Below, in pieces: positions 578 to 23,142 of a stretch of 36,605 nt of DNA. The stretch is from a virus (lineage: Duplodnaviria; Heunggongvirae; Uroviricota; Caudoviricetes). Under the pieces are notes generated by a model. That model was not told the origin of the DNA. It did no database searches and saw nothing but the letters and a program-made list of their open reading frames with translations. The position numbers and the translations under genes were made by a program. The stretch lies in IMG/VR virus record IMGVR_UViG_3300029219_000015; one strand, written 5' to 3'. Numbering within the stretch: position 1 is the stretch's first letter; each line of letters starts with the position of its first letter.

Positions 578-664
578 GGAGAGTAGGGAGCATGGTGCTC
601 AAGCGGTCTTGAAAACCGTCCCATTGTGCAAACGATGATGGTTCGATTCCATTACTCTCCGCCA
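578..664 (+). tRNA. tRNA-Ser (anticodon TGA), long variable arm, CCA encoded
   Basis: Acceptor stem GGAGAGT/ACTCTCC; anticodon stem GCGGT/ACCGT with loop CTTGAAA; long variable arm; T-loop TTCGATT; discriminator G then CCA. Confidence 0.8.
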
Positions 665-4429: not shown

Positions 4430-6538
4430 ATGTCTAAAAAACGTTCCATCAAAGAGGTTCAGGACTTCCGTGACAGTGTAAAACGAGTAGTCGCTCTCCT
4501 TTCAGGTAAAAACATCCCTGTTGCAGAACGAGGGGACGACGCTTATGTACGCTATAACGATGATGGAGAGCCAATTCTCGTAAACATCCCATCAATCCCG
4601 GATAACGCAACACCGGCATTGATGAATGCTGTGCGCGGATTTCTCGATCATGAGGTTGCTCACATTTTGTTTACCGATATTCGTGTGTCCAACAAAATGA
4701 GAGAAAAAGGACGCGTTCCTTCCTGGTCGCTATGGAATGCCTTAGAAGACGTGTTCATCGAGCGAAAAATGGGTCAGGTCTTTAACGGAACAAGACGTAA
4801 TCTGATGGCAACTCAGCGCCTTATAATCGAAAAAGTCTTTAAACCAAAGGCTTCAGAGGCTATTGCTTATTGTGGCAAAGATCAGCGCGCGCTTTTTCTA
4901 AACTTCTTTCTCTGTCCGGTTGTAAGAGCCTGGGATGGCCAAGCACCGTTCGTAGATTTCATGGATGAATATTGGCCTGTCATTGAGAAACCAATTTCAT
5001 TATTAAAAGAACATGGTATCGATGTGGCCGTGCGTAACATGTCTTGCACCGAGGATTGTGTAAAGGTGGCTGCGACCATAGCTAAGATCCTCAAAGACAC
5101 TGAAAGTGAAAGCAAAGGTAAGGAGTCAGCTCCGGGAAAAACTTCCGATCCTTCAGACGCTGACCAGACGGATGCCTCTGGAGAAAACAATGAAGACAAC
5201 GAAGATCATGAGACACCCTCAGCGTTAGATAATCACAAATCTATCAAATCAGAATCACACAGTAAGCACAAACATGATAATAACGACAGTGATGATTCAG
5301 ATAATTCTGAATCATCAGAAACAATATTCGATGATACAGAAAATGATAAAGAGGTATCAGATTCTGGTGCTTCTGATAACGCGGCGTCAGAATCATTTAC
5401 CACTGACCACGAAAAAAGAAAATCGACAGAAGACGGCTCTTCAGACATTCCAACTCCGTCAAAAATGAGTCTGGAAGAGGCTTTAGAGGAGTTGGATAGC
5501 ATGGAAGATGAAGTCGGAGGCATGACAGAAGATGCGCTATCCGAAACGATTAAAAGCGAGTTAACAGAAAGCTCGAAAAGCGAATACAGGCCATACAATC
5601 GCTCATACGACTTCATCGGCTCGATTGATCAGGCAGAAGCCCATATCAAACGGCTTATTAAAACATTCTCCGATATTGATTTAGGTGGATATCCAATCAG
5701 CCGTTATCGCATCGTTCCTGAAGGCAACCAACTCTTCGACAAATATATTGAAAAGCACCTTTCGTCAGGTGTTTCGTCGACGCTGGCAAAAGACCTGGAA
5801 CGTGCAATAGCAAGCAGAAACAGAGTTCAGTTTATACCTGGCCAGCGTCGGGGGCGCATTCATGGTTCAAGTATCTACAGATTAACAATGAATGATGATC
5901 GCGTGTTTCGTAAAAAAGAAGAATCTAAAGCCGTTAACGCCTGTGTTCAACAAGTGATTGATTTATCGGGTTCAATGAGTGGCGAAACGATAAAACTAGC
6001 TCTTGCAAGTGCATATACCATCGCCGATGCACTTGATCGAATAAATGTTCCCAACATTATCACCGGCTTCACTACATTTGGTAGTCATATGGCGGCAGGA
6101 GAACTTAAGGCTGTCAAGTATGAGTTCTCTCGCTTTGAATCTTTAATGCTACCTATCATCAAAAATTGGAATGAAAAGGTAAATTCTCGCGAAGTTCGCT
6201 CACGTATGGGGTGCGTAGGCTACACATTCCCACTTCTTAATAACGTGGATGGTGAAAGCATAGCCAGCCTTGCATCGTTATTTTCCGGTCGCATGGAGGA
6301 CAGGAAGATCATGCTTGTTCTGAGTGATGGCGCGCCGTGGGCTGTTGGGAGAGGTTTTGACGCTCATTTGCGTTCAGTTGCGAAGCAAATTGAAACGCAG
6401 ACTGATATTGATTTGATGGCAATTGGCATCATGACTGACGCACCGGAGAGATTTTACTCAAATCATGCCCTGGTAACGAGCGTTGATAGTCTTGGTTCAT
6501 CTGTAGTTACTGAACTATCTCGTATCATTTTAAAGTGA
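4430..6538 (+). CDS. CobT-like protein with C-terminal von Willebrand A (vWA) domain and long acidic S/D/E-rich linker
   Basis: 702 aa; AAAGGA RBS; MIDAS-like DLSGSMSG motif in the C-terminal third; roughly 160-aa acidic low-complexity region; HEVAH (HExxH-like) near the N-terminus; immediately followed by an AAA+ ATPase gene. Confidence 0.7.
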   Translation: MSKKRSIKEVQDFRDSVKRVVALLSGKNIPVAERGDDAYVRYNDDGEPILVNIPSIPDNATPALMNAVRGFLDHEVAHILFTDIRVSNKMREKGRVPSWSLWNALEDVFIERKMGQVFNGTRRNLMATQRLIIEKVFKPKASEAIAYCGKDQRALFLNFFLCPVVRAWDGQAPFVDFMDEYWPVIEKPISLLKEHGIDVAVRNMSCTEDCVKVAATIAKILKDTESESKGKESAPGKTSDPSDADQTDASGENNEDNEDHETPSALDNHKSIKSESHSKHKHDNNDSDDSDNSESSETIFDDTENDKEVSDSGASDNAASESFTTDHEKRKSTEDGSSDIPTPSKMSLEEALEELDSMEDEVGGMTEDALSETIKSELTESSKSEYRPYNRSYDFIGSIDQAEAHIKRLIKTFSDIDLGGYPISRYRIVPEGNQLFDKYIEKHLSSGVSSTLAKDLERAIASRNRVQFIPGQRRGRIHGSSIYRLTMNDDRVFRKKEESKAVNACVQQVIDLSGSMSGETIKLALASAYTIADALDRINVPNIITGFTTFGSHMAAGELKAVKYEFSRFESLMLPIIKNWNEKVNSREVRSRMGCVGYTFPLLNNVDGESIASLASLFSGRMEDRKIMLVLSDGAPWAVGRGFDAHLRSVAKQIETQTDIDLMAIGIMTDAPERFYSNHALVTSVDSLGSSVVTELSRIILK

Positions 6539-6633
6539 ACAAAACAGCCTTAACGATAAGTAACCACTTACGATAGATAATGATATATTTATATAAGAAG
6601 TTGAACGCTCATTAGAAAACAAAGGAAAAACGC

Positions 6634-7869
6634 ATGACTACTACTGCACTGCAAAATGAAAAAAATCCTTCTGATTACCTTGTTTGCAAGTGGTGCGGAA
6701 AATCATTTCACTATTTTAAGTCCCATGTAGCCAATGGTAATTGCGAGGGCATTCCTGAGTCAGTAAAAGATGCCGATCCTGACACCGTACTGAAAATGTA
6801 CACAACACAGTTTCCAGATGAGCCAACGCTATCGAAAAAGGCACTTGATGCAATTCAAGCTAAACGTGCCGAGCAAAAAAGCGAAATGGCCAAATCATCT
6901 GGCGTGACCAGTAGCCCAGGCTACACAGGCACAGTTGAGTACAAGACAGATCTGGTCGCAGCTCACGAACTGCTAAATGTAACGGTGAAAGAACTCGGAA
7001 CAAAACGTGGGACGCCGCTCATGGTTAGCGTCAACGTCAATACGCCGTTTCCAGAGTTCGTTCCAGAAGTGAAGAAGGGATACGTATATGGCGACTTCGA
7101 ACTGATCAAAGACATTTTCATGATGCTTGAACTTGGCATACCTGGCTATTTGTGGGGTCATGCAGGAACAGGCAAATCTTCATTGCCTACACAACTATGT
7201 GCTTTGCTCAATCGTCCGTTAATCCGTGCCCAACATACAGCATCAATGGAAGAGGCTCATGTTACGGGACAAATTCTGGCGCGTGATGGCTCTACGTATT
7301 TCGAGCCTGGCTTGCTTGCGCTCGCAATGAAGCATGGCTGGGTTTACCTCGCGGATGAATACGACTTTGCGTTTCCACAGATTCTTGGCGTGTATCAGCC
7401 AGTGCTGGAAGGTGAAGCGTTGGTCATCAAAGAGGCGACTCCAGAATGGCGTCGCATTACTCCGCATGAACGGTTTGCTTTCATTGGCACTGGCAACACG
7501 AACGGATCTGGTGATGAAACCGGCTTGTACCAGGGTACAAACATCCAGAACGCCGCGAACTTTTCGCGTTTTGGCATCGTTTCGAATGTGAAATACATGA
7601 GCAAAGAGGCAGAGATCAACATGTTGATAAATGCCGGTATCGTGGATGAATACGCAGAAAAGATGGTTAAGTTTGCCGGTATCGTTCGCGATGGATACGA
7701 AGAACACCTTATCAGTCAGCCAATTGGCCCTCGTGAACTTTTGTTGTCGGCCAAGATTGGAATGATGCGAGGCGACTTTGTGACAGGTATTGAGCGTTCT
7801 TTCATTAACAAACTCCCTTCAGCTTCTGCACAAGCGGCTCGTGAAGTTGTTCAAAAAATATTTGGTTAA
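6634..7869 (+). CDS. CobS-like / MoxR-type AAA+ ATPase with N-terminal Cys-rich zinc-ribbon-like segment
   Basis: 411 aa; Walker A GHAGTGKSS; Walker B VYLADEYDFA; N-terminal CKWCG...C...C; AAAGGAAAAACGC-ATG initiation region. Confidence 0.75.
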   Translation: MTTTALQNEKNPSDYLVCKWCGKSFHYFKSHVANGNCEGIPESVKDADPDTVLKMYTTQFPDEPTLSKKALDAIQAKRAEQKSEMAKSSGVTSSPGYTGTVEYKTDLVAAHELLNVTVKELGTKRGTPLMVSVNVNTPFPEFVPEVKKGYVYGDFELIKDIFMMLELGIPGYLWGHAGTGKSSLPTQLCALLNRPLIRAQHTASMEEAHVTGQILARDGSTYFEPGLLALAMKHGWVYLADEYDFAFPQILGVYQPVLEGEALVIKEATPEWRRITPHERFAFIGTGNTNGSGDETGLYQGTNIQNAANFSRFGIVSNVKYMSKEAEINMLINAGIVDEYAEKMVKFAGIVRDGYEEHLISQPIGPRELLLSAKIGMMRGDFVTGIERSFINKLPSASAQAAREVVQKIFG

Positions 7870-8049: not shown

Positions 8050-11000
8050 ATGAAGGCACTGATGGTTCGAACTGACTTCTCACTTGGGGAGTCGGCTCTA
8101 AAAGCAGAAAACGCGGTGAAGATTGCCAGAGAAGCTGGCTACACCGCTGTAATTTCAGCAGATAGCATGAATATTGCGAGCGTTATTCCACTACAACGTG
8201 CCGCTGGTGACGACATGGCGGTTATTTGTGGTGTGAAACTAAACATTGTTGATGATCCCACATACGAGCACCGGGCTAAACTTGCTAAAGAATCTATGAG
8301 ATGTATGGAATCATTAGAGCGGGGACGTAACTACTCGTTTACCGCTCTAATTAAAAATGAGCAAGGATATCGCGACATCTGCGAACTAATGACGGCGGCC
8401 AACACACGAGAACAGTTCTACTTTGTACCGCGTCTCTCGCTCGAACAGTTGGTTTCTACATATGCCAAAGGCAACATCATCCTGCTTACTTCCGACATCG
8501 GTAGCGTGTTCCAACGCAACGATTTTGCAAAAATCATAAGCACACTGATTACAGCGGGTGGAAAAGACAACTTCTATAGTGTGGTTTATCCGCACCCTAC
8601 CCCATTCTACGACCAGATTAACGTCCGGGCGATGAAAGTCGCCAGCGCATTGAAAATAGAGCCAGTGGCGTTCTATCCCGCTTATTACGAATCGATCGAC
8701 GATGCAGACATTAAAGACATTGCGCACATGGTTACGAACAACATCAAAATCGACCAGCCGCATCGTCTGCGTATCCCCCACCAGCGAGATAACGCCGTCA
8801 ATGGTCGCCGCCATCTCCTTGAGGCGCTTAAAGCCTTCTCCGTTCGCATGGATGTGCCGGTAACAGCTGCAATGGCCTCAACAACGCAGGATACCATTAT
8901 CGATGCCTGCACATGGCGCTGGCATGAATTGCCACCAGCACTGCCCAAGATGGCAGACGACGAACCTGCAACGCTGATGAAACTGGCTGTTGCAGGGCTG
9001 CGTAAACGTCTTACCACAAAAGAGTTTGGATACACACCACCTGCTTCTGAGAACAGGGTTTATGTTGAGCGGCTAAAGTACGAAATGGACACGCTGACTC
9101 GCCTGGGATTCTGTGGTTACTTCCTGATGGTACGCGATCTGATGAATCACAGCCGTGAAACTGGCATTCCTGTCGGGCCTGGTCGTGGTTCCTCTGCCGG
9201 TTCTCTGGTGGCGTGGTGCATAGGCATAACCAACGTCGACCCAATCCGTCACGGTCTTCTGTTTGAGCGTTTCATCAACCCTGAGCGTCTCGACTTGCCG
9301 GATGCGGACTTGGACTTCAGCCAGGCACGTCGCCATGAGGTGATCGAGTATCTGAATGAACGCTACGGCGAAGATTACGTTGCAGGCATTCCGAACTTCA
9401 CCTATCTGGGCGCGGCATCTGCGCTGCGTGACACTGCACGTATTTACGGTGTCGATGCTGCGGATATGGCGGTATCCAAAGAGTTCAAGAATATGGAGGA
9501 CGACAGCCTGTCTCTGGAAGAGCTGCGCGAGCAACTGGCCAGCCTGGACAAATACGCCACGAAAAACCCGGAAGCGTTCAAAGCGGCGTGTAAGCTGCAA
9601 AGCCTGATGCGTGGTTTTGGTCGTCACGCTGCGGGGATGATCGTCGCTGGCGTTCCATTAGTAGAGCGCACGCCCGTCGAGCTGCGTGGCAATGCTCGAT
9701 GTATTGCGTTCGATAAACGTTACTGCGAGGCGATGGGGCTGATTAAGTTGGACGTTCTCGGTCTGGCAACACTCGATCTTCTGGATAGCGCGAAACGCTA
9801 CATCAAAGAGAGTACCGGTGAAGACATCAATCTCGACGCTATCCCACTGGACGATCGCAAGGTTCTGGATGGGTTCGCTGCAGGGTACACGCAGGGCGTA
9901 TTCCAGCTGGAGTCCGGCCCCATGCGTAAGCTGCTTAAAGATCTGGGCGGTGGCATCGAGCCAATGAGTTTCAAAACCGTTGTCGCAACTACCGCCCTCT
10001 TCCGACCGGGACCGATTCAATCCGGCATGTTGGATGACTATGTTTCCGTTGCGAAAGGATTTATGACGCCTACATCACTACATCCTGTCTTGGATGAACT
10101 GACCTCTGAAACAAATGGAGTGATTCTCTATCAGGAACAAACGATGAACGCAACAAGGCTTCTTGCTGGTTTCACAATGGCCGAGGCGGATGGTGTGCGT
10201 TCAGCAATCGGTAAGAAGAACATGGAAAAGATGAGGAGCATGGGTGAGAAATTTGTCATTCAGGCTCAAGCTGGGTGGATCGACGTAGAGCTTGAAAATG
10301 GCGCAATACAACGGATTCATCGCGCAGAACATTTTAAATGCGAGGACGGTACTCTGAGGACAGTTGAAGAGGCGTTGGAGCATGGAGTGAAGCTGCCAAT
10401 GCCAGTTGTGCGCGTTACAACGTCACATCCAGGTCTGTCTGAGACGAAGGCAAAAGAGATATGGACTGCATTTGAGAAAAACGGAGCCTATCAGTTCAAT
10501 AAATCACACTCCGTTGCTTATTCTTTAATCAGTTATCAGTCTATGTGGCTAAAGACGCACTACCCTGCTGAGTTCTTCGCAGCTGCGCTCACCATTCTGG
10601 GCGAGGATAAGCATCAGGGGCTGGTGAAGGATGCGCTGACCTATGGCATTCGCGTATTGCCACCAGACGTTAATGTGTCATCTAACCGAATTGAGATCCG
10701 CACACTCGAAGACGGCAGTCAGGCACTGTATGCGCCATTCTCTGCTGTGAAAGGCTGTTCTGAAAATGGTTGTCAGGCAATTATGCGTGCGCGTGAGAAA
10801 GTTGGTGGCAAATTCGAGTCAGTGGCACAATTCGATGAAGCGGTCGAGAAGCGTGCATGTAACAGTCGTGTACGCGAGTCGCTTCATAAAGTAGGGGCTT
10901 TTGCGTCAATTGAGCCAGGCAGTCTGCCAGCAACTGATCCTGAACGACTGCGCGACCAGGCTGAGCTGATGGGCAATCTCATCATTGACGCTGTTAAAGC

Positions 11001-11568
11001 ATCACGTCCGTTCGAAATGAATCCTAAGCGTTCTGCCGAAATCAACGTACTCATGACACGTATGGCGGCTGAAATGGGCTTGGGTGAGGAGTTGATACGC
11101 CCGACTATTGGTATTAAACCCAAAATCATGATCATTCTGGACAATGCGAACGGCAATGACGCTCGTACCGGCTACTTCATGGAGAACGGATACGACGACT
11201 TTAAGGCAAAACTACTGACAGTTGGAGATCTGCGCATGGGCGATCTTTATGTCACGGGTGTTTGTAAGAAGGTTAAGGACAAAGAGAAAGACTATACCAA
11301 AGACGAGATAGGCCAGTTCACAGACTTTATGCGGGAAGAAATTAATCTTGTACGACCAACCTACATTTTGACGTGTGGTAGTCGTTCAACCGCACTATTT
11401 AACAATAAGAGTAAACCATCAGATCTGATTGGTTGTAAGGAGTACTTCCCAGAGCTTGATGCAACCGTCTTCTACGGATTTAACCCGAATATCCTGTACT
11501 TCCGACCGGAAGAAGGAGAGCGACTGGAGGCCATTCTGGCTGATATCGCGGAGACAATAAATAAGTAA
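8050..11568 (+). CDS. dnaE: DNA polymerase III alpha-subunit homolog (DnaE-type replicative polymerase)
   Basis: 1172 aa; catalytic-core motifs GIPVGPGRGSSAGSLVAWCIGIT...LLFERFINPER...LPDADLDF and FNKSHSVAYSLISYQSMWLKTHYPAEFFAA match DnaE from memory; N-terminal PHP-like region lacks the usual His pair. Confidence 0.85.
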   Translation: MKALMVRTDFSLGESALKAENAVKIAREAGYTAVISADSMNIASVIPLQRAAGDDMAVICGVKLNIVDDPTYEHRAKLAKESMRCMESLERGRNYSFTALIKNEQGYRDICELMTAANTREQFYFVPRLSLEQLVSTYAKGNIILLTSDIGSVFQRNDFAKIISTLITAGGKDNFYSVVYPHPTPFYDQINVRAMKVASALKIEPVAFYPAYYESIDDADIKDIAHMVTNNIKIDQPHRLRIPHQRDNAVNGRRHLLEALKAFSVRMDVPVTAAMASTTQDTIIDACTWRWHELPPALPKMADDEPATLMKLAVAGLRKRLTTKEFGYTPPASENRVYVERLKYEMDTLTRLGFCGYFLMVRDLMNHSRETGIPVGPGRGSSAGSLVAWCIGITNVDPIRHGLLFERFINPERLDLPDADLDFSQARRHEVIEYLNERYGEDYVAGIPNFTYLGAASALRDTARIYGVDAADMAVSKEFKNMEDDSLSLEELREQLASLDKYATKNPEAFKAACKLQSLMRGFGRHAAGMIVAGVPLVERTPVELRGNARCIAFDKRYCEAMGLIKLDVLGLATLDLLDSAKRYIKESTGEDINLDAIPLDDRKVLDGFAAGYTQGVFQLESGPMRKLLKDLGGGIEPMSFKTVVATTALFRPGPIQSGMLDDYVSVAKGFMTPTSLHPVLDELTSETNGVILYQEQTMNATRLLAGFTMAEADGVRSAIGKKNMEKMRSMGEKFVIQAQAGWIDVELENGAIQRIHRAEHFKCEDGTLRTVEEALEHGVKLPMPVVRVTTSHPGLSETKAKEIWTAFEKNGAYQFNKSHSVAYSLISYQSMWLKTHYPAEFFAAALTILGEDKHQGLVKDALTYGIRVLPPDVNVSSNRIEIRTLEDGSQALYAPFSAVKGCSENGCQAIMRAREKVGGKFESVAQFDEAVEKRACNSRVRESLHKVGAFASIEPGSLPATDPERLRDQAELMGNLIIDAVKASRPFEMNPKRSAEINVLMTRMAAEMGLGEELIRPTIGIKPKIMIILDNANGNDARTGYFMENGYDDFKAKLLTVGDLRMGDLYVTGVCKKVKDKEKDYTKDEIGQFTDFMREEINLVRPTYILTCGSRSTALFNNKSKPSDLIGCKEYFPELDATVFYGFNPNILYFRPEEGERLEAILADIAETINK

Positions 11569-11575
11569 TAAAGAA

Positions 11576-11597
11576 AACCCGCCTGTTGGCGGGTTTA
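11576..11597 (+). terminator. Rho-independent terminator after dnaE
   Basis: AACCCGCC-TGTT-GGCGGGTT then TTTAT; an A-run precedes it. Confidence 0.6.
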
Positions 11598-11871
11598 TAA
11601 AGAATTATGGCGCTTGTTGAGGAAGTCACTCCTCTTACGCACTTTGTTTTGCCATGCCGGCAGTTAGCTTCTGCCTTTGACTATTCATGCGGCAACCCCG
11701 CATTTCGCCACAATGGGCAATTCACTTTTATGGAATAAACTGGCCGTTGTGTCGATTTAATTAGCATGGCCTTACCATGCTAATTTATTCAACTTGTACA
11801 ATCCTACAAATCTATCCACTCAGGCTTACACCGTCTTCGTTATTGTAGAAATGAGGATCATCAGCGTTGAA

Positions 11872-12087
11872 TCAGCTTAGAGCAACGACATTTGCTGCTG
11901 CTGGGCCTTTAGCCCCATTCTCGATAGAGAATTCGACCTGCTGGCCTTCTTCCAAAGTGCGGAAATTATTACTCTGAATTGCCGAAAAATGTACAAAAAC
12001 ATCTTTACTGCCATCAGCAGGAGAAATAAAGCCAAAGCCTTTATCAGAGTTAAACCATTTTACTAAACCAGTCATTTTATTAGACAT
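11872..12087 (-). CDS. Cold-shock protein, CspA family
   Basis: 71 aa [38 protein letters not shown]... closely matches CspA (RNP1 KGFGFI and RNP2 VFVHF motifs); AAGAAGG 8 nt before the internal ATG at 12087. The ORF-track start at 12183 is rejected. Confidence 0.85.
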
Positions 12088-12416
12088 AGATATTACCTTC
12101 TTAATTTTGTGAGCCACATAGTGCGGCGAGAATTTGATCTGTATAGATTGGGACTTACTTAGGCACTTAAGGAGGAGACTCACGAAGAAGGGAAATCAGA
12201 AGATAACACTGAACTGAGACTGCTTTACTAAAACTGCTTACATAAGGTCTGTCTTGCAAACCAACGATGCTATTAACGCATACCCCTTCTTTTCATGCAA
12301 CCTTTATTTTTCAAAGATAACTAATTTTTGTCACCATTGGTTTAGTAAACGTTAACGAACCAGACGATGCCAGACACCTTTACAGAGAACAGATGCCCGC
12401 CAATTGGCGGGCATCA

Positions 12417-12980
12417 TTATGCGCATTTCGCAATATCTTTGCGGCGTTTAATCAGTTTCTCCGCAATTTGCTCTATTTCGTTGAAATCTTTCGAGACGCT
12501 GTTTCGAAGCGCCAGATTCCATTTACTCAAAGTTCGGGCATTTTGGACAATTTGATCGCCCTCTTTAAGTCGTCCGTTATTCATGAGCCATTCAGCCACA
12601 TCAGCCCAATCCCAGAGAGGAGACTGGCCTTTTATGCGTTGTACAGGGCAAGGGAAGTCGCCGCTTCCGCGCTTACCGTCTTTGAGCAACGCCACTGCCT
12701 GGCGAGACAGGTCTGTCAGTTCCGCGATATCGCTTAAGCCCACAAGAGCCGAGTCGACGGATTCAACAATTGCACCGATACCGGCTGATTCAATATTGTC
12801 GACCGCAGATGCGATAGCTGCATCAAGTGATTGTGCTTCGCGGTCAAATTCTACATAGACGGAGTTTCCATATGCGCAAATTAGCGCATCGTCACAGCCG
12901 TTTTGGTACAGCGCGTCTTCCAGTCCTTCCGTCTCATACGATACGCCTGAGAGCGTCAGAGTGAAGTTATAAAGCGCCAT
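12417..12980 (-). CDS. HicB-like antitoxin candidate with HTH-like segment
   Basis: 187 aa from the ATG at 12980 (AAGGA RBS); central LSDIAELTDLSRQAVALL HTH-like stretch; follows a HicA-like gene in the same orientation; perfect hairpin GCCCGCC-AATT-GGCGGGC just 3' of the stop. Confidence 0.5.
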   Translation of the reverse strand: MALYNFTLTLSGVSYETEGLEDALYQNGCDDALICAYGNSVYVEFDREAQSLDAAIASAVDNIESAGIGAIVESVDSALVGLSDIAELTDLSRQAVALLKDGKRGSGDFPCPVQRIKGQSPLWDWADVAEWLMNNGRLKEGDQIVQNARTLSKWNLALRNSVSKDFNEIEQIAEKLIKRRKDIAKCA

Positions 12981-13040
12981 AGTTTTCCTTTGAAGATAGT
13001 TGGACAGTTTCTGCAAAAGGCGGCTAATGCCGCCTTGAAA

Positions 13041-13265
13041 TCATTTACAACGATCAACCATTCGTTTGATCTGTTTGGCATGGTTTTCGGGATTACCCGG
13101 AGTCGACCATACGCTCATTTGGTGAGTTTTGTGTTCACCTTCTGGATTACCGCATCGCAGTCTGCAAAAACAATGTGCAGCACCACCAGCTGCTACCCAG
13201 ATCCAGCCTTTACTTAATGCATAGTCAATGGCTGCTTGAATATGCTTATTCGGATGTTGCTTCAT
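13041..13265 (-). CDS. HicA-like toxin candidate (small mRNA-interferase-like protein)
   Basis: 74 aa; MKQ...SKGWIWVAAGGAAHCFCRLRC...STPGNPENHAKQIKRMV resembles the HicA pattern (G-x-x-V-x-x-G-x-x-H...LR then a basic C-terminus) from memory; GGAGG RBS; canonical promoter upstream. Confidence 0.5.
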   Translation of the reverse strand: MKQHPNKHIQAAIDYALSKGWIWVAAGGAAHCFCRLRCGNPEGEHKTHQMSVWSTPGNPENHAKQIKRMVDRCK

Positions 13266-13282
13266 TCGCCTCCGATAATAGT

Positions 13283-13311
13283 ATTCTATTCACAGTGTTG
13301 ACATCTGTCAA
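13283..13311 (-). promoter_or_regulatory. Sigma70-like promoter for the HicA-like operon, with a palindromic operator over the -35
   Basis: Minus strand: TTGACA, 17-nt spacer, TAGAAT, then GGAGG and ATG; the -35 lies inside the perfect palindrome GTTGACA-TC-TGTCAAC (13297-13312). Confidence 0.5.
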
Positions 13312-13519
13312 CGGCGACTGAATTTCATCCGTTCATGCCACACCCCCATCCATCTCATGTATGTGACCTAAAGATGGTCAGCACAGCTTACCAAAATAAG
13401 ACAACTAATTATCTTCGGTGATCTCAATATTTTCCCCTGAACAAAGTTGACATGACGCCATAAACCCATTCTCTGTTTGATATAATTGATACAGATTTTA
13501 TAAGTAGGAACCTATTAGA

Positions 13520-13951
13520 GTGAACACTGATATTTTTTCTAAAATCATGGCCGATCTGGAGTTCGACCGCGACAACCTTGAGGAAGTATGGCGTAAACAG
13601 CCACGGCTTTTAATGGAGTATGGGTCAAAACTAGCGCAGGCAGATCGAGATGTCGCAGAGGCAAAACTTAACCTTGAAGCTGTTGAAGCAAAGCTATACG
13701 ACACAGAGCGTAAGAACTTGAGTATGAACGGCATTAAGTTCAACGAGTCTGTACTGGACGCTAAGGTTAAAACAAACCCACAGTATCTGTCTAAACGGCA
13801 GAAGTTGGATGAAGCACGGCACATCGCAGACATATACAAACATGCTGTCGCCGCCTTTTCGCATCGCCGAGACATGATCGTTCAGGCGTCAAAGATGGCC
13901 ATCGTTGAATTAGAGCGATTAGGCTCTGAACGCTTTATTACTCCCCGTTGA
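13520..13951 (+). CDS. Hypothetical protein, likely alpha-helical
   Basis: 143-aa ORF with GTG start after AGGAA; a TG-extended -10 (TGATATAAT, 13478-13486) lies upstream; function unknown. Confidence 0.55.
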   Translation: MNTDIFSKIMADLEFDRDNLEEVWRKQPRLLMEYGSKLAQADRDVAEAKLNLEAVEAKLYDTERKNLSMNGIKFNESVLDAKVKTNPQYLSKRQKLDEARHIADIYKHAVAAFSHRRDMIVQASKMAIVELERLGSERFITPR

Positions 13952-14068
13952 TTTTTGATAGATAATAAGTAAGTACTGATCTATCATTTAACAGCTCGAA
14001 AGAGCCACGAATGAACGAAAGCCCAACGCGCATAGCGCCATCGGCCAAATCACAACAAGGAGAAACAC

Positions 14069-15097
14069 ATGTCTAAGACATTACTTGATTTGCTTAACAA
14101 AACTCGTGAAGACATTGCCGCCAAACGTGGCAACAACGTTGATCTGACTCGCTTAAAAGACGGCGTCAACTATATCCGCATCTTCCCGAATAAAGACGAC
14201 CCAAACGGTAAGTTCTTCCAGACTTTCGGTATGCACTACGTTAAGTATCAGAACGAGGAAGGTAAAGAAGCAACCAACGCTTATATTTGTGAGCAACATA
14301 CTCACGGTCGCGCTTGTCAGCTATGCGAAATGGTTATGGAAGGTCGCGCTCGTCACAAGGGTAACAAAGCAATGGAAGAACGCATCGGTCAAATGCGTGC
14401 CACTCCTCGCTACCTGGTCAACGGCATTCTTTCTGCTCGTGAGGATTTCGCAGATGCTGAGAAATGCCAGTTAATCGAGCTGCCGTCTACTGTATTCGAT
14501 GATATCTGCAAAGCAATCACCGAAGACATCGCTGATGATATCGGCAATCCACTGAGCAAAGAGGAAGGCTACGCATTCCTGATTAAACGTACTGGCTCTG
14601 GTCGCGATACCAAATATGACGTCTCGCCTAAGCGTAAAGTCTACAAAGGCGATATCGAAGATAAATTCTGGAACACCCAGCATGATCTGATCGCATACGC
14701 AAATCAGGCTGATGAAACTCGTCTTCTGTCGACAGTTCGCACTATGGGTCGTCTGATTGGCATCGCTGCACCAACTGCCGCAGCATCTGCACCAGCAATT
14801 TCCTCAACCGCGAAAACATCGGCTGCGGCACTACCTGGATTTGGCTCTGTCACTGGTCATACAGAAGGTGCGACGGCTGTAGCAACCGCGCACACACCGG
14901 CTTCTGAACCAACCAGTCTGGTTGATGAAGAAATCCTCCGTGCCGTTGAAACTGAATTTAAACCAGAAGCAAGCTCCGCTGCCGTTGCCGTATCAGTCAA
15001 AGAGTCTGAAGCAGTCGCAGCGACATCTGTAGCAACCGCATCTGCGACGGAAGATGAAGGTCTGGATGACCTACTGAGAGAGCTGGACTCTCTGTAA
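14069..15097 (+). CDS. Single-stranded DNA-binding protein, T4 gp32-like
   Basis: 342 aa; IRIFPNKDD... N-terminal region, Zn-binding-like C-x2-H...C-x2-C (CEQHTHGRACQLCE), Ala/Ser-rich linker and acidic tail DEGLDDLLRELDSL resemble gp32; AAGGAGAAACAC-ATG. Confidence 0.75.
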   Translation: MSKTLLDLLNKTREDIAAKRGNNVDLTRLKDGVNYIRIFPNKDDPNGKFFQTFGMHYVKYQNEEGKEATNAYICEQHTHGRACQLCEMVMEGRARHKGNKAMEERIGQMRATPRYLVNGILSAREDFADAEKCQLIELPSTVFDDICKAITEDIADDIGNPLSKEEGYAFLIKRTGSGRDTKYDVSPKRKVYKGDIEDKFWNTQHDLIAYANQADETRLLSTVRTMGRLIGIAAPTAAASAPAISSTAKTSAAALPGFGSVTGHTEGATAVATAHTPASEPTSLVDEEILRAVETEFKPEASSAAVAVSVKESEAVAATSVATASATEDEGLDDLLRELDSL

Positions 15098-15115
15098 TCC
15101 CATTACGTGACCAGT

Positions 15116-15142
15116 AAGGCGTCTACGGACGCCTTACTTTTT
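15116..15142 (+). terminator. Rho-independent terminator/attenuator after the SSB gene
   Basis: AAGGCGTC-TACG-GACGCCTT followed by a T-run; same stem family as the 18715 and 19854 terminators. Confidence 0.65.
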
Positions 15143-15157
15143 GGAAGGAATGTACCG

Positions 15158-16102
15158 GTGAATTATCTCTTCGTAGATGGCAATAGCCTGGGTTATTACC
15201 ACCAACAATCTGACAAATTGCACAACGGCGAAATGGAAGTACAGGCTGCTTTCGGCTTTGTTAAGAACGTCCGTCGTTATGCCTCCATCCTCCATGCCCG
15301 ACCTATGATTCTTTGGGATGGATTTAGTGACAAGCGTCGCGACTTTTACCCGGACTACAAAGCAAATCGCGACGACGATCCTGATATGAAAAAGATGAAG
15401 GAAGGCTTTGCTATCCAGAAGCCATACATCCTCAAAATGATGACCGCGCTTGGAGTTACCCAACTCATTGCAAAAGATGCAGAAGCGGATGATCTGGCCG
15501 GGCTGCTGGTATCCCGCATGGCACCGCAGCCAACCGTTGAACACATCTATCTGTTAACAGGCGATAGCGACTGGCTTCAGTTAGTTCGCGAAAACGTAAG
15601 CTGGGTAAGCCTGCGCGAAGACGCCAAAAACAAGCAGGTTAATTTTGAGCAATTTGCGGAGCTGACAGGATTCGCTACTCCTCGCGCATTTTTGGAAGCA
15701 AAAGCATTACAAGGCGATAAATCGGACAACATTAGCGGTGTTGGTGGCATTGGTGCTGGCGGTGCGAAAGAGCTGCTGCATGAATGGGGAAGTGTCGCAA
15801 CGATGGTACGCGGCATCAACGACGGCTCAATCGTGGTTGACAAAGGACGCCATAAGACCGCCTTCAACAAACTAGCGAAGAATGCCTTCAACGAGAAAAC
15901 AGGCTGTCGAATGCTCGAAGCGTTCAAGAGAAACATCACGCTAATGAACCTGATTGAGACGAAGTTTCCGCCTACCGAAATCGAAACAATCAAAGGCAAT
16001 CGTGACGTGAAAGCATTCGAGCAACTGTGCTACGAGCTGAATTTCCGTTCGTTCCTTGAAGACCTTGAAGTGTTTGTTCTTCCATTCGAAAGGTATTGCT
16101 AA
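15158..16102 (+). CDS. 5'-3' exonuclease / flap endonuclease (RNase H-like, FEN family)
   Basis: H3TH-type motif ALQGDKSDNISGVGGIGAGGAKELL and acidic residues in GDSDWLQL; start taken at the GTG at 15158 (GGAAGGA 8 nt upstream); an in-frame GTG at 15107 is the alternative. Confidence 0.75.
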   Translation: MNYLFVDGNSLGYYHQQSDKLHNGEMEVQAAFGFVKNVRRYASILHARPMILWDGFSDKRRDFYPDYKANRDDDPDMKKMKEGFAIQKPYILKMMTALGVTQLIAKDAEADDLAGLLVSRMAPQPTVEHIYLLTGDSDWLQLVRENVSWVSLREDAKNKQVNFEQFAELTGFATPRAFLEAKALQGDKSDNISGVGGIGAGGAKELLHEWGSVATMVRGINDGSIVVDKGRHKTAFNKLAKNAFNEKTGCRMLEAFKRNITLMNLIETKFPPTEIETIKGNRDVKAFEQLCYELNFRSFLEDLEVFVLPFERYC

Positions 16103-16370: not shown

Positions 16371-18710
16371 ATGGCAAAAGGAAAATCCGCACTGGCACTT
16401 GCTCTGAAAAAGAAAATCGGTAGCAACGACGAAATTCAGAAAGTAACTCATTGGATTGATACAGGCTTTCCACCGTTAAACAAAGCTATTTCTGGTCGTT
16501 ACGATGGCGGCTTCCCATGTGGTCGTATCGTCGAAGTATTCGGGCCACCAAGCGCGGGGAAATGTGTTACCGCAGACACCATGCTGCTGACGGAGCGTGG
16601 AATGGTAACAGTGAAAGAGTTGTTTGAGATTGAAGGGTACAAAGCGACATGCACTACTCGCGATGTAGAGCATAACGTTGGACTCATCAATGAAAATGGC
16701 GTGATAGAGAAGACCTCACACCTGACATGGAACAACCGTCGCAAATTCAAGCGTATTAAGCTGGCATCAGGCGGTTATATCGAGGCTACGTTCCGTCACC
16801 CAATCCGTGTGGTTGACGACTTAGGTAATGTCGTCTGGCGACATGCTGAAAAAATCAGTGTAGGCGACACGATTCCTTCAATGGTTGGCACACATCAATT
16901 CGGCGATCAGCACCTGGATGCCAATATCGCACAACTGATGGGCTATTTAATTGCTGACGGATACGTGGCCTCTGAAAATTCAGTGAATTTTTCTAACACA
17001 GATCCTTTCATCAAGGATGAGTACTACCGCCTCATTTCGCTGGTATCAGACAAGATGCCAGTTACGAGAAAACATAACGGCTCGGAAGACCATGTGCTGT
17101 TTAGCAAAGAGGTGCGTTCGCTGCTTTTTAAAGAATATGGTCTGGAGTATGAGAAAGCTGCTGGCAAGCAGGTTCCGTTGAGTGTGCGTCGCGCCAATAG
17201 CGAGGCTCAAATTGCATTCCTTCGCGGCTACTTTGAGCTGGAATGCCACGTCAATGATGGTCGCTGCATTGAGGTTGTGAGCGCGAGTGGGCTGCTGCTA
17301 CAGCAAATTCGCCTCATGCTCCTGAATCTGGGGATTACGTCAACTATCTCTGAAAAACACGTCGCGGGTTATGAAAATACATATTACCGGCTGTCATTCA
17401 GTGGCTCTAATTACGACCTTTTTCTGTCAACGATTGGTTTCGAATCTCCGGCACGTTTATCAGTGGCAACCAAACGGGACATTGGTTTTGACCGCACTTA
17501 CTCAGGCTATGTTCCGCACATCAGCGGCTTAGTGAAATCACTCTACGAGTCGCTCACCAAGACCACCCGTGAAGACTACGCTCTGGTAGACCACGTTATT
17601 GGCCGCGGCGATCGTGTCGGAATAGACAAACTGCGAGAAATCTATGTCTCCTTCATTGGCAGAAAGAATCGTTTTAACGAGCATCTGTTTGCACAACTGG
17701 CAGCGGTAATTGGCTCTAACTTGTTCTACGACGAAGTCGTGGCTATTGAGGAAGGTGAAGCACCAACGTTCGACGTAGCGATGCCGGAAACACACTCTTT
17801 CTGGTCTAACGGGATTATCAGCCACAACACATTCCTTGCAACAGCAGCGATGATCTCCGCTCAAAAACAAGATGGTCTGGCGGTATTCCTCGATCATGAA
17901 AACAGTTTTGACGTTGGCCTGGCTGTAGCCAATGGCCTGAACGCAGATGAGGATGACGGTCAGTGGGTATACAAGCAGCCAGATACCTTCGAAGACTCTG
18001 TAGAGTTGATCGGCACAATACTTAAATTGGTTCGTGATGAAGAGCTTATCCCCGAATCAGCACCTATCTGTATCGTGGCTGACTCTCTTGCGTCTATGGT
18101 TCCGAACTCCAAAGCCGAGAAGTTCGAAAAGATGGCTGAAGGCACAGCCAAAGACAAAGATCAGCTAAACATGAACGACAATACGGCACTGGCTCGTGCG
18201 ACGAGTGCGAACTTCCCTACTCTGGCTTTGTGGGCACGCAAATACAACGCCTGCATCATCTTCTTGAATCAGGTTCGCACAAAAATCGGTGTAATGTTTG
18301 GCGACCCTACTACGTCGCCAGGTGGAGATTCACCGAAGTTCTACGCTTCTGTACGTATCCGTCTTGGTGCATCGGTGATGAAGGATGGTAAAGAGAAGAT
18401 CGGCCAGGACGTAGGCGCAGAATGCATCAAAAACAAAGTTGCACCACCGTATGGCAAATGCACCTGGAAATTCTACTTCGATCCTACTCGTGGCCTCGAC
18501 GTTATCGAGTCGCTCGTCGAGTACATGCTGGAAGAAGGATACCTGCCAAAGAACGCCAGCGGTCGAGTAGAAATTGGTGACAAGAAATACACCAAATCAC
18601 AGATCGTCGAGATGTATCGGGAGAAGCCACTAGCTGAAATCATTGCGGCTTTACAGGCAATCGACGACCGGAGATCAAAAGACAATCCCACCGAGTCAGT
18701 AGAAGAGTAA
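16371..18710 (+). CDS. recA: RecA-family recombinase interrupted by an in-frame intein (precursor 779 aa; predicted mature protein about 357 aa)
   Basis: N-extein ends GRIVEVFGPPSAGK and the C-extein starts T, reconstituting Walker A GPPSAGKT; C-extein FLNQVRTKIGVMFGDPTTSPGGDSPKFYASVRIRLG matches the RecA core; AAAGGAG RBS. Confidence 0.85.
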   Translation: MAKGKSALALALKKKIGSNDEIQKVTHWIDTGFPPLNKAISGRYDGGFPCGRIVEVFGPPSAGKCVTADTMLLTERGMVTVKELFEIEGYKATCTTRDVEHNVGLINENGVIEKTSHLTWNNRRKFKRIKLASGGYIEATFRHPIRVVDDLGNVVWRHAEKISVGDTIPSMVGTHQFGDQHLDANIAQLMGYLIADGYVASENSVNFSNTDPFIKDEYYRLISLVSDKMPVTRKHNGSEDHVLFSKEVRSLLFKEYGLEYEKAAGKQVPLSVRRANSEAQIAFLRGYFELECHVNDGRCIEVVSASGLLLQQIRLMLLNLGITSTISEKHVAGYENTYYRLSFSGSNYDLFLSTIGFESPARLSVATKRDIGFDRTYSGYVPHISGLVKSLYESLTKTTREDYALVDHVIGRGDRVGIDKLREIYVSFIGRKNRFNEHLFAQLAAVIGSNLFYDEVVAIEEGEAPTFDVAMPETHSFWSNGIISHNTFLATAAMISAQKQDGLAVFLDHENSFDVGLAVANGLNADEDDGQWVYKQPDTFEDSVELIGTILKLVRDEELIPESAPICIVADSLASMVPNSKAEKFEKMAEGTAKDKDQLNMNDNTALARATSANFPTLALWARKYNACIIFLNQVRTKIGVMFGDPTTSPGGDSPKFYASVRIRLGASVMKDGKEKIGQDVGAECIKNKVAPPYGKCTWKFYFDPTRGLDVIESLVEYMLEEGYLPKNASGRVEIGDKKYTKSQIVEMYREKPLAEIIAALQAIDDRRSKDNPTESVEE
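16563..17828 (+). mobile_element. Intein (422 aa) with LAGLIDADG-type homing endonuclease motifs, inserted in the RecA P-loop
   Basis: Begins with Cys (CVTADTMLL), ends IISHN followed by extein Thr; internal LMGYLIADGYV and FLRGYFELECHV resemble LAGLIDADG motifs; boundaries inferred from extein continuity. Confidence 0.8.
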
Positions 18711-23122: not shown

Positions 23123-23142
23123 GTGGACACCTTTGTCATTCA

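What the first reader, a model, noticed from the sequence alone, without database searches (positions are those of the whole stretch)
8050..15097. DnaE-type replicative polymerase combined with T4-like recombination and replication proteins
The element encodes its own DnaE-like polymerase, whose N-terminal PHP-like region lacks the usual histidine pair (MVRTDFSLGES), together with a gp32-like SSB, FEN, RecA, SbcCD-like nuclease and RuvC-like resolvase. No sliding clamp, clamp loader or proofreading subunit is visible in this window, so how the polymerase achieves processivity and fidelity is open. From memory, this gene set resembles that of SSU5/pHCM2-like phage-plasmids.
Basis: inference. 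Interest (0 to 1): 0.45.

Follow-up and report, generated by a model that had tools for sequence, protein, structure and literature searches.

The report
Phage-plasmid DnaE polymerase with UDG-like tail
This is the ordinary replication and recombination gene block of an SSU5-type phage-plasmid of E. coli: its DnaE polymerase has a dead PHP domain, probably uses the host sliding clamp, and has its proofreading exonuclease gene just beyond the window edge.

Summary
Window 8050..11568 encodes a 1172-aa C-family (DnaE) polymerase. The window also holds gp32-like SSB, FEN, intein-containing RecA, SbcCD-like and RuvC-like genes. It is 99.7% identical to E. coli plasmid pRHB36-C16_2 and 97% to phage-plasmid Cyrano (SSU5 group).

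The PHP domain keeps 0 of 9 canonical metal ligands, a pattern conserved across relatives. The polymerase aspartates are intact.

The "open" puzzle mostly shrinks:
- **Proofreading:** a DnaQ-type DEDDh exonuclease gene (185 aa) starts about 163 nt past the window end. It co-occurs with this polymerase type in 31 of 31 phage genomes.
- **Processivity:** a QAELM motif (aa 970-974) sits where E. coli alpha has QADMF and is conserved across about 120 relatives. This points to use of the host beta clamp, but that is inferred, not shown. No clamp or clamp loader was found in the element.
the OB and tau-binding domains are replaced by a family-4 UDG-like domain with altered catalytic motifs. This architecture was already noted in 2014.

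Verdict: a new member of a known kind, with modest interest.

The parts
8050..11568 (+). dnaE: 1172-aa C-family polymerase with the architecture PHP(degenerate)-Pol3-HhH-clamp motif-UDG-like domain
   Evidence: Pfam and NCBIfam. PDB Pol III alpha matches at E 1e-109 to 1e-121. The full-length AF2 model matches Taq, E. coli and Mtb Pol III alpha (E 2.7e-48) and then family-4 UDGs.
8050..8949 (+). PHP domain, aa 1 to about 300, with 0 of 9 canonical metal ligands (M5 R7 E14 S39 K63 S96 S148 P210 Y212)
   Evidence: MAFFT alignment with E. coli DnaE, read at the nine positions of Barros 2013 Table 1. The same pattern is seen in 11 relatives down to 47% identity.
8974..10269 (+). Polymerase core (palm, thumb, fingers), aa 309-740. 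Catalytic aspartates D418, D420 and D568 are kept (nt 9301-9309 and 9751-9753).
   Evidence: Pfam DNA_pol3_alpha 3.6e-73 and finger 1.8e-43. The aspartates align with E. coli D401, D403 and D555.
10270..10434 (+). Insertion of about 52 aa (aa 741 to about 795), predicted as a small beta-rich module. Related dnaE genes are split at this site by an HNH homing endonuclease gene.
   Evidence: Absent from E. coli DnaE and from relatives P0107, P0108 and P0116. AF2 predicts strands 743-793 with pLDDT 77-89. The split gene is seen in L009.
10645..10914 (+). (HhH)2 / beta-binding domain, aa 866-955
   Evidence: Pfam HHH_6, 3e-16.
10957..10971 (+). Candidate beta-clamp-binding motif QAELM, aa 970-974
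   Evidence: Aligns column for column with E. coli 920-QADMF-924. Among 120 family members Q is present in 105, L in 98, and L/M/I in 113. The consensus is QL[S/D]LF with positions 1, 4 and 5 critical (PMC3919608).
11038..11565 (+). Family-4-UDG-like domain, aa about 997-1172, replacing the OB fold and tau-binding CTD. Motif A is L-D1031-N-A-N, the uracil-recognising Asn is G1070, and motif B is N1145-P1146. There are no Fe-S cysteines.
   Evidence: TIGR00758, E 5e-8, below its cutoff. AF2 pLDDT 86; Foldseek finds 4zbx at 1e-12. The family profile against PDB finds 4zbx at 4.6e-21.
11872..12087 (-). cspG-like cold-shock gene, part of a variable islet
   Evidence: Pfam CSD 4e-33. Annotated in CP057127.1.
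12417..12980 (-). HicB-like / DNA-binding regulator
   Evidence: Annotations in Cyrano and CP057127.1. PHROG 2620.
13041..13265 (-). HicA-like toxin ORF (74 aa)
   Evidence: ORF listing. Position matches Cyrano CYRAN_51.
13520..13951 (+). Conserved 143-aa protein, called UvsY mediator by the Cyrano annotators. That function was not verified here.
   Evidence: Conserved next to dnaE and gp32 in 24 of 27 distant loci. No Pfam match, no PHROG with an assigned function and no PDB match.
14069..15097 (+). gp32-like SSB with an acidic C-terminal tail
   Evidence: Pfam gp32 1.7e-66. Sequence.
15107..16102 (+). FEN / 5'-3' exonuclease
   Evidence: Pfam 5_3_exonuc_N 2.2e-24 and 5_3_exonuc 5e-12.
16371..18710 (+). 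RecA interrupted by a 422-aa LAGLIDADG intein (nt 16563..17828) in the P-loop
   Evidence: Pfam RecA, Intein_splicing and LAGLIDADG_3. Boundaries GPPSAGK|C...HN|T.
4430..7869 (+). CobT-like VWA protein (4430..6538) and CobS-like AAA_5 ATPase (6634..7869), always directly upstream of dnaE
   Evidence: Pfam. Conserved synteny.
24343..27574 (+). SbcD-like (24343..25428) and SbcC-like (25658..27574) nuclease
   Evidence: Pfam Metallophos, AAA_23, SMC_N and SbcC_Walker_B.
28317..28886 (+). RuvC-like Holliday junction resolvase
   Evidence: PHROG 159, 3e-57.
22028..23242 (-). RepA (Rep_3) plasmid initiator
   Evidence: Pfam Rep3_N 5e-9. Cyrano annotation.

Best explanation
**Shown.** The window is the replication, recombination and nucleotide-metabolism arm of an SSU5-type phage-plasmid of E. 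coli.
- Its polymerase belongs to a distinct phage lineage of C-family polymerases with the architecture PHP(dead)-Pol3-HhH-UDG-like.
- The three polymerase aspartates are kept, and all nine PHP metal ligands are lost.
- The OB and tau-binding domains are replaced by a family-4-UDG fold with altered catalytic motifs.
- A DEDDh DnaQ-type exonuclease is encoded about 25 kb downstream, just past the window end. It is co-inherited with this polymerase type in every phage genome checked.
- No clamp or clamp loader is detectable in the element.

**Inferred.**
- The element probably assembles its own replisome during lytic growth: DnaB-like helicase, primase, DnaE, gp32-type SSB, FEN, RNase H and ligase.
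- The polymerase probably gains processivity by binding the host beta clamp through the QAELM motif, with the clamp loaded by the host clamp loader.
- Proofreading is probably done in trans by the phage DnaQ-like exonuclease, with the PHP domain serving only as a structural or docking module.
- Forks are probably started and rescued by recombination using RecA, gp32, the putative mediator, SbcCD and RuvC.
- In the plasmid state, RepA plus the host replisome probably suffice.
- The UDG-like domain is most likely a DNA-binding or template-scanning module rather than a canonical uracil glycosylase.

The confidence given (0.6) is for the whole package including the inferred mechanism. The identity and architecture alone are close to certain.
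For: **Identity.** 99.7% to pRHB36-C16_2, 97% to Cyrano and 85% to SSU5; 880 plasmid records match.

**Domains and fold.**

**PHP.** 0 of 9 ligands, with catalytic D418, D420 and D568 kept. Loss of PHP ligands is known to co-evolve with a separate epsilon-type proofreader (PMC3666897).

**Exonuclease.** It lies just outside the window. It has all five DEDDh residues, and its best PDB match is E. coli epsilon at 8e-11. PHROG 192 'DNA polymerase exonuclease subunit' matches at 4e-51. It co-occurs with the polymerase in 31 of 31 phage records.

**Clamp motif.** Its position and conservation are shown, and it fits the published consensus.

**No clamp or loader.** None was found in six-frame ORFs of the window, the whole Cyrano genome, or the parts of CP057127.1 fetched. 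None lies within 10 kb of dnaE in 27 distant loci. None is among 10 hypothetical proteins scanned against PHROGs.

**Own helicase, primase and ligase.**

**Expression.** The published list of Cyrano genes expressed during lysogeny does not include the replication genes (PMC9928086).
Against: - No experiment on this polymerase was found in the held literature.
- Motif position 5 is M or L rather than F. The conserved block extends upstream (R966-x-[KR]-D-Q), so it could serve a structural role instead of clamp binding.
- The exonuclease lacks the epsilon C-terminal segment that binds alpha and the clamp, so how or whether it docks on the polymerase is unknown.
- A clamp with no detectable sequence similarity cannot be excluded.
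- D1031, Y1067, T1069, K1073 and P1146 of the UDG-like domain are strongly conserved, so some catalytic activity is possible.
- The full-length AF2 model has only moderate confidence (pLDDT 72).
Confidence: 0.6

Rival explanations
1. The polymerase does not need a clamp. The UDG-like domain, perhaps with the small beta-rich insertion, grips DNA and gives intrinsic processivity. This would resemble the role of the D4 UDG in the poxvirus processivity factor, or the role proposed for inactive UDG domains in N4-like PolA enzymes.
For: No clamp or loader is found in the element. The UDG fold is kept while 2 of 3 key family-4 residues are changed across the family. The domain replaces the ssDNA-binding OB fold. 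The precedents are described in PMC4889955 and PMC10201439.
Against: A QxxL[LM] motif at the canonical clamp-binding position is conserved across about 120 diverged members. That is hard to explain if no clamp is used. DNA binding by this domain has not been demonstrated.
Confidence: 0.15
2. The UDG-like domain is an active glycosylase for uracil or another base. It would couple base excision or template scanning to replication, as a second editing mode.
For: D1031 at the motif-A acidic position is present in 127 of 141 members. Y1067, T1069, K1073 and P1146 are nearly invariant. An N-P motif B also occurs in active family-2 enzymes (my own knowledge). Some distant members keep Fe-S-type cysteines.
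Against: The family-4 uracil-recognising Asn is never present. The motif-B His is present in only 5 of 147 members. The window protein lacks the motif-A proline and all Fe-S cysteines.
Confidence: 0.2
3. This DnaE is not the main replicase. It would be a repair or recombination-associated polymerase, like plasmid-borne DnaE2, while host Pol III copies the element in both life-cycle modes.
For: Plasmid-borne C-family polymerases are mostly DnaE2 (PMC3919608). RepA is present for host-driven plasmid replication. The gene sits among recombination genes.
Against: It is co-inherited with its own helicase, primase, ligase, SSB, FEN and proofreading exonuclease in a collinear module. This module is also present in Pseudomonas phage nickie and in Rhizobium phages. 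The clamp motif is Q-type rather than the P-rich DnaE2 type. No imuA or imuB genes were seen.
Confidence: 0.1
4. An unrecognised clamp or loader is encoded among the hypothetical proteins, or the conserved CobT-like VWA and CobS-like AAA+ pair serves as a polymerase accessory factor.
For: CobT and CobS lie directly upstream of dnaE in every relative examined. Clamps are hard to detect by sequence (PMC4889955).
Against: The whole module is collinear, so adjacency alone is weak evidence. The hypothetical proteins tested (the window 247-aa ORF and Cyrano CYRAN_31, 34, 35, 76 and 78) were not found, or only rarely found, within 10 kb of dnaE in distant relatives. They gave no clamp match in PHROGs, and the three also searched against PDB (the 247-aa ORF, CYRAN_31 and CYRAN_34) gave no significant match. 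AAA_5 is a MoxR/CobS-type ATPase, not RFC-type.
Confidence: 0.1

Closest known systems
SSU5 / pHCM2 / Cyrano group of phage-plasmids (about 100-115 kb siphoviruses kept as plasmids in Enterobacteriaceae)
   Same: Near-identical sequence and gene order. The shared genes are integrase, CobT, CobS, DnaE, gp32, FEN, RecA, RepA, SbcCD, RuvC, Nrd, MazG, ThyX and DHFR.
   Different: Only strain-level differences: the cspG/HicAB islet between dnaE and the uvsY-like gene, and a 12-nt length difference in dnaE compared with Cyrano.
The 'DnaEX' variant of Timinskas et al. 2014, found in Y. pestis and S. enterica plasmids, with OB and CTD replaced by an archaeal-type UDG
   Same: Same domain architecture: PHP-Pol3-(HhH)2-UDG.
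   Different: Nothing in kind.
E. coli Pol III alpha (DnaE1) with epsilon and the beta clamp
   Same: The polymerase core shares about 30% identity and keeps the catalytic aspartates. The PHP domain is variant. A clamp motif follows the HhH domain. A separate DEDDh exonuclease is present.
   Different: There is no OB fold and no tau-binding CTD. The PHP domain has 0 of 9 ligands, against 4 of 9 in E. coli. The exonuclease lacks the alpha- and clamp-binding tail. There is an extra insertion of about 52 aa. The clamp and loader are not encoded.
UDG-PolA fusions of phages (N4-like, SPO1-like)
   Same: A family-4 UDG fold is fused to a phage replicative polymerase, often with unconserved catalytic residues (PMC10201439).
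   Different: The polymerase family differs (A versus C). The UDG is N-terminal there and C-terminal here, so these are independent fusions.
T4 recombination-dependent replication system
   Same: gp32-type SSB, a RecA/UvsX-class recombinase, an SbcCD (gp46/47)-type nuclease, a junction resolvase, and UvsW annotated elsewhere in Cyrano.
   Different: The polymerase is C-family rather than B-family gp43. There is no gp45 clamp or gp44/62 loader. The resolvase is RuvC-like rather than Endo VII. The UvsY assignment is unverified.

Membership tests
SSU5-type phage-plasmid | High nucleotide similarity and synteny with SSU5, Cyrano and pHCM2-like elements | tested here: met
   97% identity to Cyrano over 97% of the region and 85% to SSU5 over 70%. 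880 matching plasmid records, mostly non-mobilizable. Collinear annotation.
SSU5-type phage-plasmid | Both plasmid maintenance genes and phage structural genes in one replicon | tested here: met
   RepA (Rep_3) is in the window. ParA/ParB, terminase, capsid and tail genes are in the rest of Cyrano and CP057127.1. These lie outside the window and are inferred for this copy from 99.7% identity.
C-family DNA polymerase (DnaE type) | PHP, Pol3 core with three catalytic aspartates, fingers and (HhH)2 | tested here: met
   Pfam. D418, D420 and D568. PDB and Foldseek matches.
DnaE1 (canonical replicative alpha subunit) | C-terminal OB fold and tau-binding CTD | tested here: not met
   Homology to the Taq and E. 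coli enzymes ends at about aa 953-956. The C-terminus is a UDG fold.
Metal-binding (exonuclease-competent) PHP domain | Nine ligands: H H D/H H E H C/H D/N H | tested here: not met
   M5 R7 E14 S39 K63 S96 S148 P210 Y212, read against Table 1 of PMC3666897.
Beta-clamp-binding proteins | A QL[S/D]LF-type pentapeptide, with positions 1, 4 and 5 critical, placed after the (HhH)2 domain | tested here: inconclusive
   QAELM at aa 970-974 is in the right place and is conserved. Position 5 is M or L, not F. Binding itself cannot be tested with these tools.
Family-4 uracil-DNA glycosylase | The alpha/beta UDG fold | tested here: met
   Foldseek finds 4zbx at 1e-12 with TM 0.69/0.79. The family profile finds 4zbx at 4.6e-21.
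Family-4 uracil-DNA glycosylase | Motif A GE[AG]PG, the uracil-recognising Asn (ITN), motif B HP[AS], and four Fe-S cysteines | tested here: not met
   The window has LDNAN, T-G1070 and N1145-P, with no cysteines at the cluster positions. It also scores below the TIGR00758 and Pfam cutoffs.
Pol III epsilon (DnaQ) proofreader (gene outside the window) | DEDDh catalytic residues | tested here: met
   D9, E11, D99, H155 and D160 align with E. coli D12, E14, D103, H162 and D167.
Pol III epsilon (DnaQ) proofreader (gene outside the window) | C-terminal segment carrying the clamp motif and the alpha(PHP)-binding helix | tested here: not met
   The protein ends at residue 185, against 243 in E. coli epsilon. 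The alignment covers only the exonuclease domain. It scores below the NCBIfam epsilon cutoffs.
T4-type replisome | gp43 B-family polymerase, gp45 clamp and gp44/62 loader | tested here: not met
   phmmer with gp45, gp44 and gp62 against all six-frame ORFs gives E > 1. The polymerase is C-family.
UvsY recombination mediator | Sequence or structural similarity to T4 UvsY | tested here: inconclusive
   No Pfam hit, only function-unknown PHROGs, and no PDB hit for a 13-sequence profile.

The most novel reading that the evidence does not exclude
The DnaE-UDG polymerases define an uncharacterised phage replicase type, found in siphophages of about 105-120 kb that infect enterobacteria, Pseudomonas, Xanthomonadales and Rhizobium. 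In this reading, a catalytically remodelled UDG domain has taken over the role of the OB and tau-binding domains. It would act as an intrinsic DNA-gripping or base-scanning module. The enzyme would work with a tail-less DnaQ exonuclease, and possibly with the always-adjacent CobS/CobT-like AAA+/VWA pair. The result would be a replisome organised differently from both the bacterial Pol III holoenzyme and T4.
Probability: 0.2. Interest if true: 0.6.

Novelty: new member of a known kind. Interest (0 to 1): 0.3.

Why it matters
SSU5-type phage-plasmids are common in clinical and livestock Enterobacteriaceae: 880 plasmid records match this region. They are also known carriers of resistance genes. 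Their replicase has never been studied biochemically.

Two practical questions follow. If it depends on the host beta clamp and a trans-acting proofreader, that bears on host range, copy-number bursts and mutation rate of these elements. The polymerase is also a compact natural example of a C-family enzyme that has lost its tau link and gained a UDG fold.

For this scan, the main message is more modest. The apparent puzzle is largely explained by a gene just outside the window and by known biology.

Tried and rejected
- **Hidden clamp.** Ten hypothetical proteins of Cyrano and the window were scanned against PHROGs and all came back 'unknown function'. Three were searched against PDB sequences with nothing significant. 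The acidic 269-aa protein next to the exonuclease is half disordered and is not clamp-like. The in-window 247-aa ORF is not conserved in distant relatives. The idea is rejected as unsupported, not excluded.
- **phmmer** with E. coli DnaN and T4 gp45, gp44 and gp62 against all six-frame ORFs gave only E > 1.
- **The search for related loci** with the diverse C-terminal alignment failed for lack of a conserved stretch. With alignment A1 it returned only relatives at 90% identity or more. Distant loci were obtained using P0138 and P0142 as queries instead.
- **UvsY check.** A profile against PDB found nothing.
- **Literature.** Searches for experimental work on this polymerase or on the phage CobS/CobT pair found none.
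- **Not used.** One homologous-protein search and one fold search remained, because no candidate justified them.

Full report
**What the window is.** The region 8050-15097 is 99.7% identical over its full length to E. coli plasmid pRHB36-C16_2 (CP057127.1). It is 97% identical to Escherichia phage Cyrano, the phage-plasmid of strain LF82, and 85% identical to Salmonella phage SSU5 over 70% of its length. In total 880 plasmid records match, mostly non-mobilizable plasmids of about 100-115 kb from Klebsiella, Escherichia, Enterobacter, Yersinia and Salmonella. Curated Cyrano annotation and my own domain scans agree on the gene order:
- integrase
- CobT-like VWA protein (4430..6538) and CobS-like AAA_5 ATPase (6634..7869)
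- dnaE (8050..11568)
- a small variable islet: cspG-like, HicB-like and HicA-like genes
- a 143-aa conserved protein (13520..13951)
- gp32-like SSB (14069..15097) and FEN (15107..16102)
- RecA (16371..18710) and RepA (22028..23242, minus strand)
- SbcD-like and SbcC-like genes (24343..27574) and RuvC-like resolvase (28317..28886)
- NrdAB, MazG, ThyX, a PNK-like gene and DHFR

**The polymerase.** The 1172-aa product begins MKALMVRTDFSLGES. Pfam finds PHP (aa 6-176, a weak 50 bits), the Pol III alpha catalytic domain, the fingers and the HhH domain. Solved Pol III alpha structures from Thermus, M. tuberculosis and E. coli match at E 1e-109 to 1e-121. Identity to E. coli DnaE is about 30% over aa 4-956. 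The three catalytic aspartates are kept as D418, D420 and D568.

**The PHP domain.** Barros et al. (PMC3666897) list nine metal-ligand positions with consensus H H D/H H E H C/H D/N H. E. coli has R10 H12 D19 F44 D69 H83 G134 D201 R203 at these positions. The window protein has M5 R7 E14 S39 K63 S96 S148 P210 Y212, which is none of the nine canonical ligands. The same pattern holds in eleven relatives down to 47% identity. This is an anciently inactivated PHP domain that has been retained as a structural module. The same paper shows that loss of PHP ligands co-evolves with a separate epsilon-type proofreader.

**The proofreader lies just outside the window.** In the 99.7%-identical plasmid, the window's last complete gene is followed by a 139-aa ORF, which the window end cuts. 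Next comes a 185-aa '3'-5' exonuclease' gene that starts about 163 nt past the window end. Cyrano annotates it as 'Exonuclease, PolIII subunit epsilon'.
- It has all five DEDDh residues: D9, E11, D99, H155 and D160.
- Its best solved relative is E. coli epsilon, at E 8e-11.
- It matches PHROG 192, 'DNA polymerase exonuclease subunit', at 4e-51.
- It comprises only the exonuclease domain. The epsilon C-terminal segment that binds alpha and the clamp is absent, so its mode of docking is unknown.

A tblastn of the polymerase's C-terminal domain finds 31 phage records. These are the SSU5 group plus Pseudomonas phages of the nickie type, Stenotrophomonas, Xanthomonas and Rhizobium RHEph10-type phages, all 84-122 kb (all but one 103-122 kb). 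All 31 also appear among the hits for the exonuclease, at 39-45% identity outside the SSU5 group. The polymerase and the exonuclease are therefore co-inherited across the whole lineage.

**Processivity.** I found no clamp or clamp loader.
- E. coli DnaN and T4 gp45, gp44 and gp62 give only E > 1 against every six-frame ORF of the window, the entire Cyrano genome and the parts of CP057127.1 fetched.
- None lies within 10 kb of dnaE in 27 distantly related viral contigs.
- Ten hypothetical proteins match only function-unknown PHROGs.

The polymerase does carry QAELM at aa 970-974, about 20 residues after the HhH domain. MAFFT aligns this column for column with E. coli 920-QADMF-924. Across 120 diverse family members the block reads R-x-[KR]-D-Q-[ILKMV]-E-L-[LMI]-P-G. 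Q is present in 105 members, L in 98, and L/M/I in 113. The published consensus is QL[S/D]LF, with positions 1, 4 and 5 critical, placed directly after (HhH)2 (PMC3919608). The region has lower AF2 confidence than its flanks (pLDDT 62-73), as expected for a linker motif. The simplest reading is that the enzyme uses the host beta clamp, loaded by the host clamp loader. This is inference. Position 5 is not F, and the upstream conserved R and D could mean the block has another role.

Homology to cellular DnaE stops at about aa 955, and the protein has no OB fold or tau-binding domain. Several lines of evidence identify the remainder as a family-4 UDG-like domain:
- NCBIfam TIGR00758 (family-4 UDG) matches at E 5e-8, below its cutoff.
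- Pfam UDG is marginal in the window protein (0.024) but reaches 4e-6 to 1e-5 in relatives.
- An AF2 model of aa 950-1172 (pLDDT 86, pTM 0.84) matches family-4 UDGs from Sulfolobus, Thermus and Thermotoga, and UdgX, at E 1e-12 to 1e-9.
- A 21-sequence family profile finds 4zbx at 4.6e-21.

This architecture is already in the literature. [quoted passage not shown]

Read against the family-4 signatures, the catalytic motifs are altered:
- Motif A, GE[AG]PG, is L-D1031-N-A-N. The D is present in 127 of 141 members.
- The uracil-recognising Asn of ITN is G1070 and is never N in the family.
- The motif-B His is N1145. Across 147 members it is N in 96, S in 30, T in 13 and H in 5.
- The Fe-S cysteines are absent.

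The domain is therefore not a canonical family-4 enzyme. Its strongly conserved D, Y-x-T, K and N-P residues nevertheless show that it is under selection. Comparable UDG domains fused to phage family-A polymerases have been proposed to act as processivity modules or as a second editing site (PMC10201439). Poxvirus D4 UDG is part of a processivity factor (PMC4889955). I rank a DNA-binding or scanning role first and a modified glycosylase activity second.

**Breadth of the family.** An exhaustive search with the C-terminal domain found 136 clusters at 50% identity. They fall into two architectures: full-length proteins of about 1080-1140 aa, and C-terminal halves of about 385-400 aa. The halves exist because dnaE is recurrently split. 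In Klebsiella phage-plasmids a free-standing NUMOD4+HNH endonuclease gene separates a 787-aa ORF from a 389-aa ORF. Distant contigs L119 and L120 are split as well. In Klebsiella the split falls inside an insertion of about 52 aa, which in the window protein is aa 741 to about 795. That insertion is absent from E. coli DnaE and from more distant relatives. AF2 predicts it as a small beta-rich module with pLDDT 77-89.

The whole arm is collinear in the 27 IMG/VR loci and in Pseudomonas phage nickie. Its order is helicase, primase, ligase, CobT, CobS, DnaE, the 143-aa protein, gp32, FEN, RecA, SbcD, SbcC, RuvC, Nrd, Thy, DHFR and DnaQ.

**Mechanism.** The following are shown: the identity of the element, the domain architecture, the dead PHP domain, the intact polymerase site, the presence and co-inheritance of the DnaQ-type exonuclease, and the absence of any detectable clamp or loader. 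The following are inferred:
- The element builds its own replisome during lytic growth. The published list of Cyrano genes expressed in lysogeny contains repressor, toxin-antitoxin and a few other genes, but no replication genes.
- It borrows the host beta clamp through the QAELM motif.
- It proofreads in trans.
- It uses the RecA, gp32, SbcCD and RuvC set for recombination-dependent initiation and fork rescue.
- RepA (Rep_3) with host enzymes maintains the plasmid state.

The comparison with T4 holds for the recombination proteins only. The polymerase and its accessory factors are not T4-like. The 'UvsY' label for the 143-aa protein could not be verified.

**Verdict.** The element and the polymerase architecture are already known. 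The fidelity question is answered by a gene just beyond the window, and the processivity question has a plausible, testable answer. What remains open is biochemical: the role of the UDG-like domain, how a tail-less exonuclease is recruited, and whether the host clamp is really used.

Noticed in passing
window 16371..18710 (intein nt 16563..17828): RecA is interrupted by a 422-aa intein with a LAGLIDADG homing-endonuclease domain. It is inserted in the Walker-A P-loop (GPPSAGK|C...HN|T). A relative's RecA (the P0107 context) is 341 aa and has no intein.
   Followed up: partly
window 10270..10434 (DnaE aa 741 to about 795); L009 4001..8253: DnaE carries an insertion of about 52 aa between the fingers and the HhH domain, predicted as a small beta-rich module. 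In Klebsiella phage-plasmids dnaE is split exactly there into 787-aa and 389-aa ORFs by a free-standing NUMOD4+HNH endonuclease gene. Distant contigs L119 and L120 are also split. The insertion may be a scar or an adaptor related to homing-endonuclease invasion.
   Followed up: partly
window 4430..7869: A CobT-like VWA protein and a CobS-like AAA_5 (MoxR-type) ATPase lie directly upstream of dnaE in every relative examined. This covers the IMG/VR loci with upstream flank (23 of 27 show both), the P0107 and P0116 contexts, and Pseudomonas phage nickie. No CobN or other cobalamin genes accompany them. Their function in these phages is unknown.
   Followed up: partly
window 91..177, 182..257, 578..664: Three tRNA genes are present: Tyr-GTA, Thr-TGT and Ser-TGA. 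Cyrano annotates Asn, Thr and Ser at the equivalent place.
   Followed up: no
window 11872..13265: A variable islet lies between dnaE and the 143-aa conserved gene. It holds a cspG-like cold-shock gene, a HicB-like regulator and a HicA-like toxin. The csp segment is 75-77% identical to lambdoid phages (Tritos, 2H10), which suggests mosaic acquisition. Relatives carry other cargo at this position.
   Followed up: no
window 14069..15097: The gp32-like SSB has a long Ala/Ser/Thr-rich linker and an acidic C-terminal tail (...EDEGLDDLLRELDSL). This resembles the protein-recruiting tail of T4 gp32.
   Followed up: no
proteins P0096, P0101 and P0118 (database relatives): Some E. coli relatives encode DnaE-RecA fusion ORFs of 879-1075 aa that carry both PHP/Pol3 and RecA Pfam domains. 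These are apparently deletion derivatives that have lost the region between dnaE and recA, meaning decayed phage-plasmids.
   Followed up: no
window 845..1753 (-): A 302-aa ORF sits in a low-GC segment (about 38%, against about 46% elsewhere). It has no Pfam match and may be an acquired moron or defence gene.
   Followed up: no
window 13520..13951: The 143-aa protein annotated as UvsY in Cyrano is conserved next to dnaE and gp32 across the whole lineage. It has no Pfam match, no PHROG with an assigned function and no PDB match. Distant homologues carry long, variable N-terminal extensions of up to about 400 aa.
   Followed up: partly
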